DNA of 64,000 nt from a virus. Shown here one piece after another: positions 686-63,731 of the stretch (positions within the stretch are counted from its first letter, which is position 1; the number at the start of each line of letters is the position of its first letter). Where the stretch lies: the IMG/VR virus record IMGVR_UViG_3300037628_000643, positions 40,022 through 104,021 of that record; one strand, written 5' to 3'. The notes under the pieces are model-generated. The model was given only the letters and a program-made list of their open reading frames with translations. It did no database searches and was not told the DNA's origin. Both the position numbers and the translations under genes were made by a program.

Positions 686-863
686 GAAGTACAGGTATTG
701 AATACACAATCAACAGCGGCTCGAACTGGATTAGCCTAATATAATAAATATGAAGCATTCTGTCCTGAAGGCCATATTCAGAACATTCAAATGGAATGAG
801 CGCAAGAAATTTAATGGTATAATTACAATAATTAAAATACTCTATTAATATTAAGGGATACAC

Positions 864-3478: not shown

Positions 3479-3502
3479 CATGAAATAGCTTTGTGGCATA
3501 AT
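3475..3502 (+). promoter_or_regulatory. Sigma70 promoter of the endonuclease gene
   Basis: TTGACA-N16-CATAAT. Confidence 0.6.
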
Positions 3503-3531
3503 TAATTATTATTTATGATTAGGAGTCATTA

Positions 3532-4658: not shown

Positions 4659-5846
4659 ATGGCAGGCTCTTCTATCCAAGGAAACTCGATTGTCCACGCT
4701 ATGGTACTTCAAGCAAGTGCAGTTTCTGGGAGTCCTTTAACGCCTACGTTCGACATCCTTCCAAGGACGAGCGGTGACATTGATATCGCCAAATCGTTCA
4801 CTCAAAGTGAACTGGTAGATCCGACCAGACAGCCTTCGTTCAATGTGACCACAGGTTCTGAAATTGCAGGCTCCATCGAGAGTGAACTTGCGGTAGATAC
4901 TCCCGTGCTTCAGACGATAGTGCAAGGCACCATGCAGAATACATACGTTACTGCTATATCATTCAATGGTTCGGCGACATTTACCAACGGAACGTCAAGT
5001 ATTCTTGCAATCGGAGCATTTACTAACGCAGTCGTTGGTCAGTTTATCGGCGTCTTTGGAACTGTAAGCAATGACGGGGTATTCAAAATTACTACGGTTA
5101 CGGACAACGACAACGTGGTGGTGAGCGGAGCACCAACAGATGAAACAATCTCTTGTGATATAGTCTCAAAGGCAATCAGAAACTCCAATGTACAGCAAGG
5201 TTTAACGGTACAGAAACGAATTCCTACTGACTCTGGTATCATTTACAAGACTTTCGAAAACTGTCAAATAGGTACTTTAAATCTATCTATTACTACTGGC
5301 TCAATTGTTACTCTTAATTATGATCTTATCGGACTGGACAAAATCGCTGGCGATGCCATCGTCTCTGGCCAAACAGATAATCCCCTTGATGCATCTCGTG
5401 TAGCTGGTTCTGTTAATGATGTTGTTGAGTTCTGGATTGATGGAATCGCACAAACCACTGATTCAGTTTGCTTTACAGATTTTACGATTTCCGTCGACAA
5501 TTCAGCTCAGTCAAATCCAGCGATTGGCAAGGAAGGTGCTTGTTCTATCAGTTTCTCGCAAGCAGTAGTAACCGGAACTTTAGTATCTTATGTAGACGGA
5601 ACTGACACAACTACAGCAAATAGCGAAGTAGCAAAGCGTGATGCTGAAACACTCTTTAGTCTTGCAGTCGTAATGAAAGATGTTGATGGAAACATTCTTG
5701 TTATCTCAATGCCTTCTATCCAGTACACTGAACTTACTCAGTCTGATACAGCCAACGGCGATGTGCTGAAAAACAACGGAACCTTCTCTGGAAACGGAAA
5801 AGCTTCTGGGTACGCAATCGAGTTTGACTTTATCGCTGCACCATAA
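4659..5846 (+). CDS. Major tail tube protein
   Basis: 395-aa Thr/Ser/Gly-rich ORF upstream of the chaperone and tape measure genes; followed by a terminator. Confidence 0.8.
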   Translation: MAGSSIQGNSIVHAMVLQASAVSGSPLTPTFDILPRTSGDIDIAKSFTQSELVDPTRQPSFNVTTGSEIAGSIESELAVDTPVLQTIVQGTMQNTYVTAISFNGSATFTNGTSSILAIGAFTNAVVGQFIGVFGTVSNDGVFKITTVTDNDNVVVSGAPTDETISCDIVSKAIRNSNVQQGLTVQKRIPTDSGIIYKTFENCQIGTLNLSITTGSIVTLNYDLIGLDKIAGDAIVSGQTDNPLDASRVAGSVNDVVEFWIDGIAQTTDSVCFTDFTISVDNSAQSNPAIGKEGACSISFSQAVVTGTLVSYVDGTDTTTANSEVAKRDAETLFSLAVVMKDVDGNILVISMPSIQYTELTQSDTANGDVLKNNGTFSGNGKASGYAIEFDFIAAP

Positions 5847-18304: not shown

Positions 18305-18497
18305 GCCCGTATATGTAACTAAGATACAATATGAGATGCCACTTCTTTTGTGTCCAAAGCCAACAATTAATGGCAAAGTTGGTGGCATGACAATGGTCGA
18401 ATTTCAATTATGGGGACAGAAATCATGGAACTGGATTTCAACTTGTTATAATTCTATTATCACAGAAAGTGATATAATACGCATAAATAACTCTTAA
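18054..18497 (+). CDS. Overlapping Rz1/o-spanin-position protein (no lipobox visible)
   Basis: +1 frame overlap with the i-spanin; LLLCPKP...C motif; start uncertain. Confidence 0.5.
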   Translation: MKNMNILLLIWKVLASPATKILSSLLTSSTGGKILNVSKRALSKISKKDLAILIIAIAVSFPLGWILKPEKQVLVVSEPEMISRPVYVTKIQYEMPLLLCPKPTINGKVGGMTMVEFQLWGQKSWNWISTCYNSIITESDIIRINNS

Positions 18498-18514
18498 CAT
18501 TCAAGGAAATAAAC

Positions 18515-59416: not shown

Positions 59417-59983
59417 ATGAAAATTACACTAAGAAAATCAAAGGCACTTCAGAGTGCAATTCTGGAGCAAATGGAAGACATTTTTGCACCAGATTCTGTG
59501 AATATTGGTGAATTCGAAGATTTAGATTCCGTGATGGTTGTTGCAAAATCAGCTCATGAGAGTTACGTTAATCAATATACTGAGCTTAATGGTGTTTTTT
59601 ATGAGCTTCGTAAGTTGACATCTGATGAGAATTATCGTAGCGGCGTAAGTGAAACATTATCTAATGTTGCTATGGTCGAAAAAAGGATTATCTTCCTTGT
59701 GCAATTTTCAAAGGCAAAGCCAGCCTTAGAGCAGACTTTGTTGAGCGGTAAGATTGCAAAATTATCACTCGGAGACACAACAGGAAGCTACGGAAGGTCA
59801 GTTGATTCTGTGTCAACGGGGATTTTATCTCAAGGTGCCATTGATATTTTTAAGACAAATGTATCTGATCTTAAAAAAGAAAAGATTAAATTACAAGATC
59901 ACCTCGTAAATGTTAATTCGTCTGCCGAGATTGAAGTTTCTGAACATGTAGAAAAGGTGCTAACTAAGCACAATTTGATTTAA
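59417..59983 (+). CDS. All-helical coiled-coil protein of unknown function
   Basis: AGGAGG RBS; helical throughout. Confidence 0.7.
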   Translation: MKITLRKSKALQSAILEQMEDIFAPDSVNIGEFEDLDSVMVVAKSAHESYVNQYTELNGVFYELRKLTSDENYRSGVSETLSNVAMVEKRIIFLVQFSKAKPALEQTLLSGKIAKLSLGDTTGSYGRSVDSVSTGILSQGAIDIFKTNVSDLKKEKIKLQDHLVNVNSSAEIEVSEHVEKVLTKHNLI

Positions 59984-59989
59984 AAGGTT

Positions 59990-60248
59990 TTGCGTGTTTT
60001 GTTGTTTAAAAATGCGCCGTAGATAGAAGGTCTGGTCAAAAATATTCAGCTTTACAGCTGAACTAATGGAGATCGTGCTCTCTGGATATATAGGCTTAGG
60101 CCATGCTATTTGCTCCAGAATATAAGATCATGATGCTATTTGAACCTTGACTATTGATATTTGTCTTTTGCTTAGACTAGATCTTTTGTTTTCGTTAATG
60201 TATAATGTGACACGATTTAGGAGTCTCTCGCATATATCCAGATGAGCG
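59990..60248 (+). ncRNA. Candidate structured ncRNA with a periodic TTG-repeat loop
   Basis: GCTCTCTGGATATAT (60077-60091) pairs with ATATATCCAGA-T-GAGC (60232-60247); hairpin TTCAGC/GCTGAA; no ORF. Confidence 0.55.
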
Positions 60249-60286
60249 GTATATTTTGCCAAGCTCCATTTTTACAGGAGGCACTC

Positions 60287-60562
60287 ATGACAATAGTAAC
60301 CAAGCATGCTTTCGAAAGATGTAAAGAGCGCGTAGGATTGCCAAAAAGAGCAATACTAAGAATGGTTGAGTCTGCATATGTCAAAGGCAAGTCTCATTCT
60401 AATTTTCATGGTAGCTTCGGACGATATCTTGATGGTATATACCTGAAGGAAAGAAATGCAAATAATTTAAAAGTATGGAATTACAATGTGTTCTTATTCC
60501 ATGATGATGTTCTTATAACGGTTTTTGATGTTCCTTCTAAGTATAAGAAGGCTTCAAGGTGA
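60287..60562 (+). CDS. Hypothetical protein
   Basis: AGGAGG RBS; VTKHAFERCKER...LITV motif. Confidence 0.6.
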   Translation: MTIVTKHAFERCKERVGLPKRAILRMVESAYVKGKSHSNFHGSFGRYLDGIYLKERNANNLKVWNYNVFLFHDDVLITVFDVPSKYKKASR

Positions 60563-60566
60563 GTTC

Positions 60567-60643
60567 GGGCCAATAGCTTAATTGGTAAAGCAGACCCCTC
60601 ATAAGGGTAAGAAGGAGCGGTTCAAACCCGCCTTGGCCCACCA
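60567..60643 (+). tRNA. tRNA with CAT anticodon, probably tRNA-Ile2 (lysidine) rather than Met
   Basis: Cloverleaf GGGCCAA/TTGGCCC-A-CCA, loop CTCATAA, TTCAA T-loop; C4-G69 and C5-G68 TilS determinants. Confidence 0.85.
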
Positions 60644-60649
60644 TTTTCA

Positions 60650-60726
60650 GCATCTATAGCTCAATTGGACAGAGTAGCTGCCTTCTAAGCAGTTGGTTCC
60701 AGATTCGAATTCTGGTAGATGCGCCA
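60650..60726 (+). tRNA. tRNA-Arg(TCT)
   Basis: GCATCTA/TAGATGC-G-CCA, loop CTTCTAA, TTCGAAT T-loop. Confidence 0.92.
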
Positions 60727-62057: not shown

Positions 62058-62714
62058 ATGGAACCACTTCAAAAATTCAAAAAGAACAGCTACGGAAATG
62101 ATTATGTTGTAGGCGATATTCATGGTATGTATGATTTGTTATTTGAAAAACTAAATAAAGTAAATTTTGTTTTTGACACAGATAGATTATTCTCTGTAGG
62201 CGATCTAATTGATAGAGGCCCAGATTCACAGAAATGCATGGATCTTTGTTATGAACCATGGTTCTTCGCAGTACGTGGTAATCATGAGCAAATGATGTTT
62301 GATGCTGTAGTTCATAAATTTGCAGATGGAGGTATGTGGATTGGCAATGGAGGTATGTGGTATATCGATGAGTGTTGTGATGATTTAGATGTCGTTATAC
62401 AGGACTTAAGTGAGAGGCTTCCGCTAGGTATTCAGGTTGAAACTGACAATGGGTTAGTTGGTATTGTGCATGCAGATGTTTATGTTAATGAGTGGGAAAA
62501 GAATTTTCAAGACATTGATTATAATCAAGCCCAATACATTCTTTGGAGTAGAAGTAGGATTGAGGGTCATAGTCATTTGACAGAAGTAATTGGGCTTGAT
62601 CGTTTGTATGTCGGTCACTCTGTCAGAAAAGAAAAAGTCATCATTGATAATGTTCATCATATTGATGCTGGATCATGTTTTTATAAAAATATTCATATTG
62701 AAAAAATATCTTGA
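62058..62714 (+). CDS. NinI/lambda-type Ser/Thr protein phosphatase
   Basis: GDIHG, GDLIDRG, VRGNHE, VHA, LWSR, GHS. Confidence 0.92.
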   Translation: MEPLQKFKKNSYGNDYVVGDIHGMYDLLFEKLNKVNFVFDTDRLFSVGDLIDRGPDSQKCMDLCYEPWFFAVRGNHEQMMFDAVVHKFADGGMWIGNGGMWYIDECCDDLDVVIQDLSERLPLGIQVETDNGLVGIVHADVYVNEWEKNFQDIDYNQAQYILWSRSRIEGHSHLTEVIGLDRLYVGHSVRKEKVIIDNVHHIDAGSCFYKNIHIEKIS

Positions 62715-62771: not shown

Positions 62772-63731
62772 ATGACAGAGTTCAAGAAGTTTCCATCAAT
62801 AGAGCAGTTTCGCCATACAGTTAGAGCTGTAAAAAAGCATTGTGAGTACAATGAACTTAAGCTGCCGACTATCGAGTTTAAAGGCACAGTTAAACTTCAC
62901 GGGACAAATGCTGCGATAGGTTACGATCCAGTTGCGAACGAAGTGTTTGTTCAGTCAAGAAAGAATATCATTACGCCAGAGAATGATAACTACGGTTTTG
63001 CGGCTTTTGTTGAAGAGCGTAAGTCAAAAATATCAAAAGATATGTGGCTCGCATTTGGAAATGGCACAGAGACAGAGCATGTATTCGGAGAATTTTGCGG
63101 AGGAAATATCCAAGGTGGAGTTGGTGTTAGTGGGCTGGAAAAGATGTTTGTTATCTTTGATGCAGATCCTTTTGTGACGCAAAGCATGTGTATTCGACAC
63201 GAGAATATCCACTCTATCAATGACTTTACAACATTCAAATGCGAAATCGACTTCAATAACCCTGAATTTTCAATTGAAAAATTGCAAAAAATAACAGAAC
63301 AAGTTGAAGCGGAATGCCCTGTAGCCAAACACTTCGGTGTCGATAACGGAGTTGGCGAAGGTGTAGTCTGGAATGCAGAGTTCGAAGGTATGCATCTTTC
63401 ATTTAAAGTTAAAGGCGAAAAGCACAGCTCGTCAAAAGTGAAAAAATTAGCTTCTGTTGATGTGGAAAAAGTAAATTCCATCAATGAATTCGTTGAAAAA
63501 ACAGTGACAGAAAATCGCTTAAATCAAGGTGTCGAAGTGGTGTTTACTATGAATAACGAATCTCCAGACATCAAAAAGATGGGTGACTTCATTCGCTGGG
63601 TGTTTAATGATGTATTGAAAGAGGAAGTGGATACCCTGACTGAAAATGGATTGAGCAAAAAAGACATCGGGAGTAAAGTTTCATTAGCAGCACGAGATTG
63701 GTTTAAATCTTACTTGGATAAAAATCTATGA
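62772..63731 (+). CDS. RNA ligase (Rnl2-like)
   Basis: KLHGTN (motif I), QSR, FGEFCG, GEGVVW, FKVKG. Confidence 0.85.
   Translation: MTEFKKFPSIEQFRHTVRAVKKHCEYNELKLPTIEFKGTVKLHGTNAAIGYDPVANEVFVQSRKNIITPENDNYGFAAFVEERKSKISKDMWLAFGNGTETEHVFGEFCGGNIQGGVGVSGLEKMFVIFDADPFVTQSMCIRHENIHSINDFTTFKCEIDFNNPEFSIEKLQKITEQVEAECPVAKHFGVDNGVGEGVVWNAEFEGMHLSFKVKGEKHSSSKVKKLASVDVEKVNSINEFVEKTVTENRLNQGVEVVFTMNNESPDIKKMGDFIRWVFNDVLKEEVDTLTENGLSKKDIGSKVSLAARDWFKSYLDKNL

What the first reader, a model, noticed from the sequence alone, without database searches (positions are those of the whole stretch)
59417..60248. Helical protein gene followed by a candidate ncRNA whose loop carries 7-nt periodic TTG repeats
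Seen: about 300 nt with no ORF follows gene 59417-59983 in an otherwise densely coded region. A 15-bp long-range stem (60077-60091 with 60232-60247, one bulge) closes a roughly 140-nt U-rich loop. The loop reads ctatTTG aaccTTG actaTTG atatTTG tcttTTG, with G at exactly 60142, 60149, 60156, 60163 and 60170, then looser units (cttag actag atcttttg ttttcg ttaatg tataatg). ATGCTATTTG occurs twice, and two small hairpins lie upstream. Known: evenly spaced triplets are how ring-shaped proteins such as TRAP wrap RNA. Inference: the upstream all-helical protein, whose termini loosely recall DIP1984-like proteins, oligomerises on this RNA as a protein-ncRNA module (autoregulation, RNA antitoxin or decoy against host defence). 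It sits next to tRNAs and an RNA-repair cluster.
Basis: partly seen in the sequence, partly recalled or inferred. Interest (0 to 1): 0.78.

Follow-up and report, generated by a model that had tools for sequence, protein, structure and literature searches.

The report
Heptad-UUG phage RNA with partner protein
The "empty" stretch behind this small helical-protein gene encodes a real folded RNA of about 210 bases that shows a row of UUG triplets every 7 bases. The same gene-plus-RNA pair recurs in many large tRNA-carrying phages, including cultured Caulobacter phages, is not catalogued, and its job is unknown.

Summary
TTG sits at exactly 7-nt steps (G at 60142, 60149, 60156, 60163, 60170), ATGCTATTTG occurs twice, and the 15-bp inverted repeat exists.

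Comparison with relatives settles what it is. Window 59984-60198 is a member of a conserved structured-RNA family. A covariance model built without the window finds it as the only significant hit in 64 kb (E 8e-6). The family always lies beside, and on the same strand as, the 188-aa protein gene. The RNA is downstream in 34 fetched loci and upstream in 54, there often behind its own promoter.

Helices covary strongly (90.5% of cells paired; 243 double-change cells against 78 in shuffles). The UG of each heptad is invariant in 79 distinct sequences.

Its left arm forms a local covarying hairpin, and the true closing helix is 60018-37 with 60175-94.

No Rfam family matches, RAGATH-27 included. 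The protein has no Pfam family, is weakly DIP1984/3KDQ-like in fold, and is modelled as a symmetric dimer.

Binding of protein to RNA, and the function, are inferred, not shown. Earlier notes of this scan describe what seems to be the same kind of pair on other DNA. I could not confirm their RAGATH-27 and T5 links here.

The parts
59417..59983 (+). Partner protein gene. It encodes a 188-aa all-helical protein with the invariant N-terminus MKITLRK. The family has about 1,880 clusters at 50% identity.
   Evidence: ORF. No Pfam, NCBIfam or PADLOC family. AF2 model pLDDT 93. Family size. Homodimer model.
59984..60198 (+). The structured RNA element as a whole, about 210 nt, starting right after the stop codon.
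   Evidence: MFE equals the centroid at -59.7 kcal/mol, z -3.53, and 0 of 200 shuffles fold as well. Model R2, built without the window, hits 60063-60173 at 32.9 bits, E 8e-6, the only significant hit in the window. There is one copy in the 104-kb genome.
59992..60017 (+). H1, a hairpin directly after the stop codon (59992-60000 pairs with 60009-60017), preceded by the conserved U-rich lead (G)UUUUG.
   Evidence: Relatives have a hairpin at the same position with different stems: GGCAGTT/AACTGCC, GGTAGTT/AACTACC, GGTGGTT/AATCACC, GCTAGTT/AACTAGC.
60018..60037 (+). P1a, 5' strand of the long-range closing helix (purine-rich). It pairs with 60175-60194.
   Evidence: 17 consecutive pairs plus 2 in the MFE. 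Family-wide, cognate strands give -15.8 and non-cognate strands -9.2 kcal/mol, and 0 of 5000 permutations reach this.
60045..60062 (+). H2, a small hairpin (60045-51 pairs with 60056-62). In 36 of 55 relatives the matching hairpin region carries CYUGAM; the window has the loop UUAC instead.
60071..60129 (+). P3 domain. The outer helix P3a is 60071-74 with 60126-29. A conserved internal loop has GUGCU on the 5' side and AAUAU on the 3' side. The inner helix P3b is 60081-86 with 60114-19. Its loop holds two heptad units (AUG 60103-05, UUG 60110-12).
   Evidence: RNAalifold gives 10 of 11 pairs with compensatory changes. On 79 distinct sequences 90.5% of cells are paired and 243 cells show a double change, against 78 in shuffles; slid controls reach 52% or less.
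60133..60172 (+). Main heptad array: AUG at 60133, then UUG at 60140, 60147, 60154, 60161 and 60168, each followed by 4 variable bases. It is predicted to be mostly unpaired.
   Evidence: The family columns are invariant for UG at 7-nt steps, the next base is mostly U or C and never G, and the spacers vary.
60175..60194 (+). P1a, 3' strand of the closing helix (pyrimidine-rich).
60199..60206 (+). TGTATAAT, a promoter-like -10 box downstream of the RNA. It is a candidate start for the 91-aa gene and the two tRNAs.
   Evidence: Many intergenic regions of this genome carry TG(n)TATAAT-type boxes without a clear -35. The consensus scan did not call it. This is inference only.
60232..60247 (+). It lies outside the conserved RNA, in an unstructured spacer.
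   Evidence: The duplex with 60077-91 is -22.3 kcal/mol, z -4.0. No equivalent exists in 54 relatives. Region 60195-60300 folds with z +0.25.
60287..60726 (+). Downstream context, not part of the module: a 91-aa gene (phrog_16724) at 60287-60562, tRNA-Met at 60567-60643 and tRNA-Arg at 60650-60726.
   Evidence: No relative carries a homologue of the 91-aa gene near the module.

Best explanation
Window 59984-60198 encodes a structured RNA of about 210 nt from a widespread phage RNA family that is not in Rfam. The RNA is transcribed on the same strand as, and together with, the adjacent 188-aa helical-protein gene, inside or beside a tRNA operon.

Its fold is as follows. A hairpin sits at the 5' end. 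A long purine/pyrimidine closing helix encloses a junction. The junction holds a covarying two-step hairpin with a conserved internal loop, and a single-stranded track of (U)UG-Y-NNN heptads.

Shown here: the RNA family, its covarying helices, the invariant 7-nt UG periodicity, the near-obligate gene-RNA linkage in either order, and promoter and terminator signals that fit co-transcription.

Inferred: the RNA and the protein form a ribonucleoprotein. Symmetric protein dimers would dock on the evenly spaced UUGY units, much as HutP reads three XAG triplets spaced by 4 nt on each face. The particle would act on the phage's tRNA economy, for example by protecting, processing or decoying. What it does is not known.

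The confidence of 0.55 is for the whole statement, including the inferred ribonucleoprotein. For the shown part alone (a real conserved RNA linked to this gene) I would say about 0.95.
For: RNA family:
- Model R1, built from 14 loci, finds one hit per locus in 89 of 100 sources (80 with E < 0.01). All hits are on the gene's strand.
- R2, built from 79 relatives without the window, finds window 60063-60173 at E 8e-6.

Structure:
- P3 pairs are 90.5% paired, with 243 double-change cells against 78 in shuffles and 52% or less in slid controls.
- For closing helix P1a, the cognate partner is best in 15 of 36 and in the top 3 in 24 of 36, with 0 of 5000 permutations as good.
- The window element folds with z -3.53. 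The gap in Caulobacter phage CcrColossus folds with z -4.97 and shows the same layout.

Periodicity:
- UG is invariant at 7-nt steps in 79 distinct sequences: 2 units in the P3 loop and about 4 in the main array. Two more units follow a variable hairpin in most relatives.

Linkage:
- The RNA is downstream of the gene in 34 loci and upstream in 54, abutting it in most.
- An RNA-first pattern scan of IMG/VR gave 23 loci with the gene. All 23 have the RNA next to it on the same strand. Every model hit of 43.9 bits or more has the gene, except one at a locus edge.

Transcription signals:
- Upstream-type RNAs start about 7 nt after TTGACA/TATAAT promoters.
- Several downstream-type RNAs end in intrinsic terminators or abut a tRNA.

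Protein:
- The AF2 model has pLDDT 93.
- Homodimer model: score 0.59, best of 3 controls 0.00. This mark was reached by 20 of 30 proteins solved as pairs of one chain and by 1 of 23 solved as single chains. The runs agree in at least 96% of contacts, and the partner's pLDDT is at least 87. My own alignment was used, so these counts hold only roughly.
Against: - No experiment or RNA data: no RNA run holding this sequence was listed.
- Protein-RNA binding is inferred only from genomic linkage and from the analogy with proteins that read periodic triplets.
- The protein is modelled as a dimer, not a ring, and has no recognisable RNA-binding domain.
- The window copy is a short variant. It lacks the second closing-helix step, the AGAUKAG / UUACUUGAC junction motifs and the variable hairpin after the array. 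My anchor search for P1a failed on it, so its P1a rests on its own fold.
- The alignments used for pair counts were fitted to the model, which favours the structure.
Confidence: 0.55

Rival explanations
1. The RNA is real but works without binding its neighbour protein. It could be a sponge or decoy whose UUG track soaks up a host factor, such as an RNA-binding protein, a ribonuclease or a tRNA-targeting defence nuclease. The neighbouring protein would then take part in the same pathway in another way.
For: The single-stranded periodic motif, the placement in tRNA operons, and RNA-repair genes nearby in this window (phosphatase 62058-62714, RNA ligase 62772-63731). No RNA-binding domain is found in the protein.
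Against: The strict adjacency and co-orientation in both gene orders is what one expects of two parts that assemble. A host-factor sponge would not need the gene next to it.
Confidence: 0.22
2. The element is a cis-acting part of the transcript, a leader or 3' UTR. It would control expression of the partner gene or the processing or anti-termination of the tRNA operon, rather than being a stable RNA of its own.
For: It is always on the same transcript as the gene. In 54 loci it is the roughly 300-nt leader between a promoter and the gene. HutP and TRAP, which read periodic triplets, are attenuation regulators (PMC2425495).
Against: In 34 loci, the window included, it lies downstream of the gene, so it cannot be that gene's leader. 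In the upstream type the closing helix ends 15-25 nt before the start codon and does not cover the ribosome-binding site. An architecture of 210-330 nt with many helices is much more than known operators need.
Confidence: 0.15
3. One reading: 60077-91 pairs with 60232-47 and closes a 140-nt loop, perhaps as an alternative conformer that switches the RNA off or couples it to the downstream gene.
For: The duplex is strong (-22.3 kcal/mol, z -4.0 against shuffled partners). It appears in the MFE of the 186-nt sub-fragment.
Against: It is absent in 54 relatives (mean z 0.12). It excludes the conserved P3 hairpin. The MFE of the whole gap does not use it. The right arm lies beyond the closing helix, after a promoter-like box. 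One 11-nt inverted repeat among 13 in the window is not unusual.
Confidence: 0.08
4. It is an ordinary intergenic or promoter region with chance repeats.
For: Within the window alone, both the repeat run and the inverted repeat are only marginally unusual. A TATAAT box is present.
Against: The covarying structure and the invariant periodicity recur in about 100 distant loci, always next to the same gene.
Confidence: 0.01

Closest known systems
HutP with the hut terminator RNA (Bacillus subtilis; PMC2425495)
   Same: An oligomeric protein reads RNA triplets separated by 4-nt spacers, which is exactly a 7-nt period. The triplets come in two groups joined by a linker.
   Different: HutP reads XAG, is a hexamer of about 150-aa alpha/beta subunits, and acts on a short attenuator. 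Here the triplet is UUG followed by Y. The partner is an all-helical protein modelled as a dimer with no similarity to HutP. The RNA is a 210-330 nt multi-helix fold, and binding has not been shown.
TRAP with the trp leader
   Same: Evenly spaced triplets on single-stranded RNA are wrapped by a protein oligomer.
   Different: By my recollection TRAP is an 11-mer ring that reads (G/U)AG at 5-6 nt spacing. There is no homology, and the period and context differ.
RAGATH-27 RNA motif (Rfam RF03100), named in this scan's earlier notes as the only catalogued fragment of 'heptad-repeat phage RNAs'
   Same: According to those notes, it belongs to a phage RNA with 7-nt repeats next to a small helical protein gene in tRNA regions.
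   Different: RF03100 is not detected at E <= 10 in the window gap, in three relatives including CcrColossus, or in T5. This branch is therefore not covered by that model.
DIP1984 of Corynebacterium diphtheriae (PDB 3KDQ) and Pfam DUF6847 (PF20935)
   Same: 3kdq is the best PDB fold match (E 0.029, TM 0.43/0.51). A neighbouring ESM-Atlas cluster carries DUF6847 in 19% of its members (TM 0.61/0.74).
   Different: The window protein has no Pfam hit. Only 2 of 95 family members touch PF20935, and weakly. That family also has no known function.
GOLLD and ROOL, large ornate RNAs of phages often found near tRNA genes (my recollection)
   Same: Phage-borne structured RNAs of unknown function that are associated with tRNA genes.
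   Different: They are much larger, have no heptad track, have no obligate partner gene that I know of, and give no Rfam match here.

Membership tests
Heptad-UUG RNA family defined here (models R1/R2) | A two-step hairpin P3a/P3b with a conserved internal loop (5' GUG, 3' AAUAU) | tested here: met
   Window P3a is 60071-74/60126-29, P3b is 60081-86/60114-19, and the loop sides are GUGCU and AAUAUAA. R2, built without the window, scores 32.9 bits, E 8e-6.
Heptad-UUG RNA family defined here (models R1/R2) | UG at exact 7-nt steps: 2 units in the P3 loop and 4 or more in the main array | tested here: met
   Window: 60103/60110, and six units from 60133 to 60170. Family columns are invariant.
Heptad-UUG RNA family defined here (models R1/R2) | A 5' hairpin followed by a long purine/pyrimidine closing helix that encloses the rest | tested here: met
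   H1 is 59992-60017. P1a is 60018-37/60175-94. Family covariation. The window lacks the second step (P1b) and its junction motifs.
Heptad-UUG RNA family defined here (models R1/R2) | Lies next to, and on the same strand as, the MKITLRK helical-protein gene | tested here: met
   The RNA starts 1 nt after the stop codon of 59417-59983. Searches show the same for the family.
RAGATH-27 (Rfam RF03100) | Match to the Rfam covariance model | tested here: not met
   No hit at E <= 10 in window 59975-60295, L048, L110 or CcrColossus. No hit at the gathering score in 10 relatives.
DIP1984-like / DUF6847 (PF20935) | Match to the Pfam or NCBIfam profile | tested here: not met
   No Pfam or NCBIfam hit for the window protein. 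2 of 95 members reach E 0.0011. PF20935 finds nothing in CcrColossus.
DIP1984-like / DUF6847 (PF20935) | Same fold as PDB 3KDQ | tested here: inconclusive
   It is the top Foldseek PDB hit, but at E 0.029, TM 0.43/0.51 and rmsd 9.7 A. The Atlas neighbour has TM 0.61/0.74.
TRAP / HutP type RNA-binding attenuation proteins | Homology of the protein to TRAP or HutP, and ring or hexamer assembly | tested here: not met
   No Pfam match. The fold is all-helical. A symmetric dimer is modelled; higher oligomers were not tested.
TRAP / HutP type RNA-binding attenuation proteins | The protein binds the periodic triplets | not testable with these tools
   Needs EMSA, CLIP or a solved structure.
tRNA, tmRNA or another Rfam family | Covariance-model match in the gap | tested here: not met
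   Aragorn. Rfam at E <= 10 gave only noise hits.
Type III toxin-antitoxin (repeat RNA antitoxin) or a known defence system | Toxin or defence protein family next to the repeat RNA | tested here: not met
   No PADLOC match for either flanking protein. The repeats are 7-nt units inside a fold, not tandem antitoxin units of about 36 nt (the unit length is from my recollection).

The most novel reading that the evidence does not exclude
A widespread, undescribed ribonucleoprotein of large phages, and possibly of giant viruses. A scaffold RNA made from the tRNA operon presents 8-10 evenly spaced UUGY sites. Dimers of a dedicated helical protein load onto these sites. The resulting particle guards or manages the phage's tRNA supply, for example as a decoy for host tRNA-cleaving defences or as a processing or anti-termination device for long untranslated tRNA transcripts.
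Probability: 0.3. Interest if true: 0.9.

Novelty: categorically new. Interest (0 to 1): 0.82.

Why it matters
Phage tRNA arrays are usually read as plain codon-supply or anti-defence cargo. Here a conserved RNA with strong covariation, plus a dedicated protein, sits inside them. The protein family has about 1,880 clusters at 50% identity. Neither part has a name or a function.

The exact 7-nt spacing of an invariant UG gives a sharp hypothesis about how a protein reads RNA, and it can be tested by mutation.

Cultured Caulobacter phages (CcrColossus gp272, CcrPW gp307) carry the pair, so the question can be taken straight to the bench. It would also add a new class to the short list of large structured phage RNAs.

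Tried and rejected
The only close relative of the protein (P0002, 81% identity, contigs under 1 kb) could therefore not be examined.
- The look-up of sequencing runs listed one DNA holder, probably the source sample, and no RNA holder.
- blastn of the gap against phage records, against the fetched loci and against its own genome found nothing. The family is visible only through structure and periodicity.
The element is therefore not a mobile element bounded by that repeat.
- No sigma-70 promoter or terminator was called in the gap.
- Whole-region duplex folding was too noisy to test the closing helix. It was replaced by anchored strands, and the anchors failed for 27 instances, the window included.
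- T5 link from the earlier notes: RF03100, the A2 protein profile and PF20935 all failed to hit T5. A triplet-run scan and a lag-7 autocorrelation of T5 10-70 kb found nothing, but the latter also missed the window's own array, so it is uninformative.
- Complex prediction was unreachable four times before it ran.
- The idea that the gap holds decayed tRNAs was rejected.
- I first guessed that the window's TATAAT box aligns with the family's post-hairpin heptads. I dropped this once the closing helix placed the RNA's end at about 60194-98.

Full report
**Setting.** The window is the last 64 kb of a 104,021-bp IMG/VR virus record that CheckV rates complete. The only run that holds the sequence is a marine-sediment metagenome. 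The region is phage-like: a dNMP-kinase-like gene, a pilin-like gene, a phosphatase, an RNA ligase and two tRNAs. Gene 59417-59983 encodes a 188-aa protein with no Pfam, NCBIfam or PADLOC family. The next gene most likely starts at ATG 60287, behind an AGGAGG box. That leaves 303 non-coding bases.

**The observation.** These are five TTG at exact 7-nt steps, the twice-occurring ATGCTATTTG, two upstream hairpins, and an 11/11 inverted repeat that extends to 15 bp across one bulge. Judged inside the window alone they are weak. Such triplet runs occur 3 times in 64 kb against 0.23 expected in shuffles. There are 13 perfect inverted repeats of 11 nt or more. Rfam finds nothing.

**Relatives.**
- The protein has one close relative, on contigs too short to use.
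- It has many distant relatives, 27-38% identical, in large aquatic phages. I fetched 123 loci.
- A profile search counts about 1,880 clusters at 50% identity.
- The gene sits in tRNA arrays: 91 of 123 loci have tRNAs within 4 kb on the same strand.
- The gap has no DNA similarity to any of these loci.
- Even so, TTG at a 7-nt period recurs 157-273 nt after the stop codon in about 20 loci, and almost nowhere else in about 500 kb on either strand.

**Conserved architecture.** Aligning these regions showed the following.
- A U-rich lead and a hairpin (H1) come first.
- A purine-rich strand follows. It pairs with a pyrimidine-rich strand about 200 nt downstream and forms the closing helix P1a.
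- One or more variable hairpins follow. One often carries the loop CUUGAAA.
- Next is a two-step hairpin, P3a/P3b, with a conserved internal loop. Its apical loop ends in two heptad units.
- A single-stranded main array of four to six (U)UG-Y-NNN units follows.
- Most relatives then have a variable hairpin and two further units before the 3' strand of P1a.

**Tests of the structure.**
- Covariance model R1 of the P3-plus-array core finds one hit in 89 of 100 sources, 80 of them with E < 0.01. All hits are on the gene's strand.
- On 79 distinct sequences the 11 P3 pairs are 90.5% paired. 243 cells show changes on both sides, against 78 in shuffles, and slid controls reach 52% or less. This alignment is fitted to the model, which favours the structure.
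- For P1a, cognate strands pair at -15.8 kcal/mol and strands from different loci at -9.2. No permutation out of 5000 reaches this.
- The G of every heptad is invariant, the following base is mostly U or C and never G, and the spacers vary freely.
- Model R2, built from 79 relatives without the window, recovers window 60063-60173 at E 8e-6. It is the only significant hit in 64 kb.

**The window copy.**
- H1 is 59992-60017.
- P1a is 60018-37 with 60175-94.
- H2 is 60045-62.
- P3a is 60071-74 with 60126-29.
- P3b is 60081-86 with 60114-19.
- The main array runs from 60133 to 60172.
- The stretch 59984-60198 folds into exactly this layout, with z -3.53 and no shuffle as stable.
- The following stretch 60195-60300 is unstructured, z +0.25. 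It holds a TGTATAAT box similar to the TG(n)TATAAT boxes seen in many of this genome's intergenic regions.
- This copy is a short variant. It lacks the second closing-helix step, its junction motifs and the post-array hairpin.

Its left arm (60077-91) contains the 5' strand of P3b, so the two pairings exclude each other. The duplex is strong in this window (-22.3 kcal/mol). The equivalent pairing is absent in 54 relatives, where the mean z is 0.12. The inverted repeat is not found elsewhere in IMG/VR except by chance. I read it as chance or as a conformer specific to this window. The idea of a long-range stem closing a loop that displays the repeats is right, but the stem is P1a.

**Linkage to the gene.**
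- In 34 fetched loci the RNA follows the gene, starting at or near the stop codon.
- In 54 loci the RNA precedes the gene and ends 71-101 nt before the start codon in most.
- In many of the upstream-type loci the RNA begins about 7 nt after a TTGACA/TATAAT promoter.
- Downstream-type RNAs end in intrinsic terminators or abut a tRNA.
- Sampling from the RNA side gave the same picture. A loose heptad pattern returned 80 IMG/VR loci. 23 of them hold the gene, and all 23 have the RNA beside it on the same strand. Every strong model hit has the gene, except one cut by a locus edge.
- The genome has a single copy.

**Cultured phages.** Caulobacter phages CcrColossus (gp272) and CcrPW (gp307) have the gene followed by unannotated gaps of 284 and 292 nt. 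Both gaps match R1. The CcrColossus gap folds into the same layout with z -4.97.

**The protein.**
- The AF2 model is confident (pLDDT 93) and all-helical, with two short strands.
- The best PDB match is 3kdq, a C. diphtheriae protein of unknown function, and it is weak.
- Good viral matches include proteins of CcrColossus, Vibrio phage Vp_R1, Erwinia phage pEa_SNUABM_47 and two giant viruses.
- The ESM Atlas places a partly DUF6847 cluster nearby.
- A homodimer is modelled with score 0.59, against 0.00 for the best of 3 controls. This mark was reached by 20 of 30 proteins solved as pairs of one chain and by 1 of 23 solved as single chains. The runs agree in at least 96% of contacts and the partner's pLDDT is at least 87. 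My own alignment was used, so the counts hold only roughly. This supports pairing but does not show it.

**Mechanism.** Shown: a conserved, covarying RNA that displays invariant UG at 7-nt steps and is co-transcribed with one protein gene. Inferred: the two form a particle in which protein dimers dock on the UUGY units. The nearest worked example is HutP, which reads three XAG triplets separated by four bases on each face of a hexamer (PMC2425495). What the particle does is open. Its place in tRNA operons, and RNA-repair genes nearby in this window, point to tRNA supply or defence evasion. That is speculation.

**Earlier notes of this scan.** 38 notes in at least 30 genomes describe a 'heptad-repeat phage RNA with a helical partner protein'. 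They name RAGATH-27, T5 and DIP1984/DUF6847. The fold likeness to 3KDQ agrees with them. RAGATH-27 does not match this branch. I could not reproduce the T5 link with RF03100, my protein profile or PF20935. Whether this aquatic-phage UUG branch and those RNAs form one superfamily is therefore likely but unproven. I found no paper on either part.

Noticed in passing
L009, L010, L070, L073 (for example L010 about 4900-4960): The RNA is followed by an intrinsic terminator whose loop contains TTGACA. A TATAAT lies 17 nt further on. This is a terminator that overlaps the -35 of the next promoter, and it is conserved across several phages.
   Followed up: no
L119 2648-3031; L086 2362-2494 (- strand); L107 and L111 downstream of the gene: Several relatives carry tmRNA-like genes (permuted or alpha-type by Rfam, tmRNA* by Aragorn) within 1-2 kb of the module, in addition to the tRNA arrays.
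   Followed up: no
whole genome, many intergenic regions (for example window 686-863, 3479-3531, 18389-18514): Upstream regions repeatedly show TG(n)TATAAT-type extended -10 boxes, often right after a canonical terminator and without a clear -35. This looks like the phage's main promoter type.
   Followed up: partly
window 60039-60051 with 60245-60257, and 60058-60071 with 60264-60277: Two further imperfect long-range complementarities (85% and 79%) link the 5' part of the RNA to the spacer before the next gene. They cross each other and overlap H2. Their meaning is unknown and they may be chance.
   Followed up: partly
BFVD matches to the AF2 model of 59417-59983: Proteins of two giant viruses (Catovirus CTV1 at E 3e-6, Yasminevirus at E 7e-5) share the fold. 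The partner-protein family may therefore reach beyond phages. Their flanks were not examined.
   Followed up: no
The Shine-Dalgarno box supports ATG 60287 instead.
   Followed up: partly
relatives L048, L011, L045, L030, L064, L074 and others, 10-45 nt before the P3 core: A hairpin with the 7-nt loop CUUGAAA or CCUGAAA is present in 36 of 55 non-redundant RNAs. It offers another UUG or CUG in a loop context. The window has a UUAC loop instead.
   Followed up: partly
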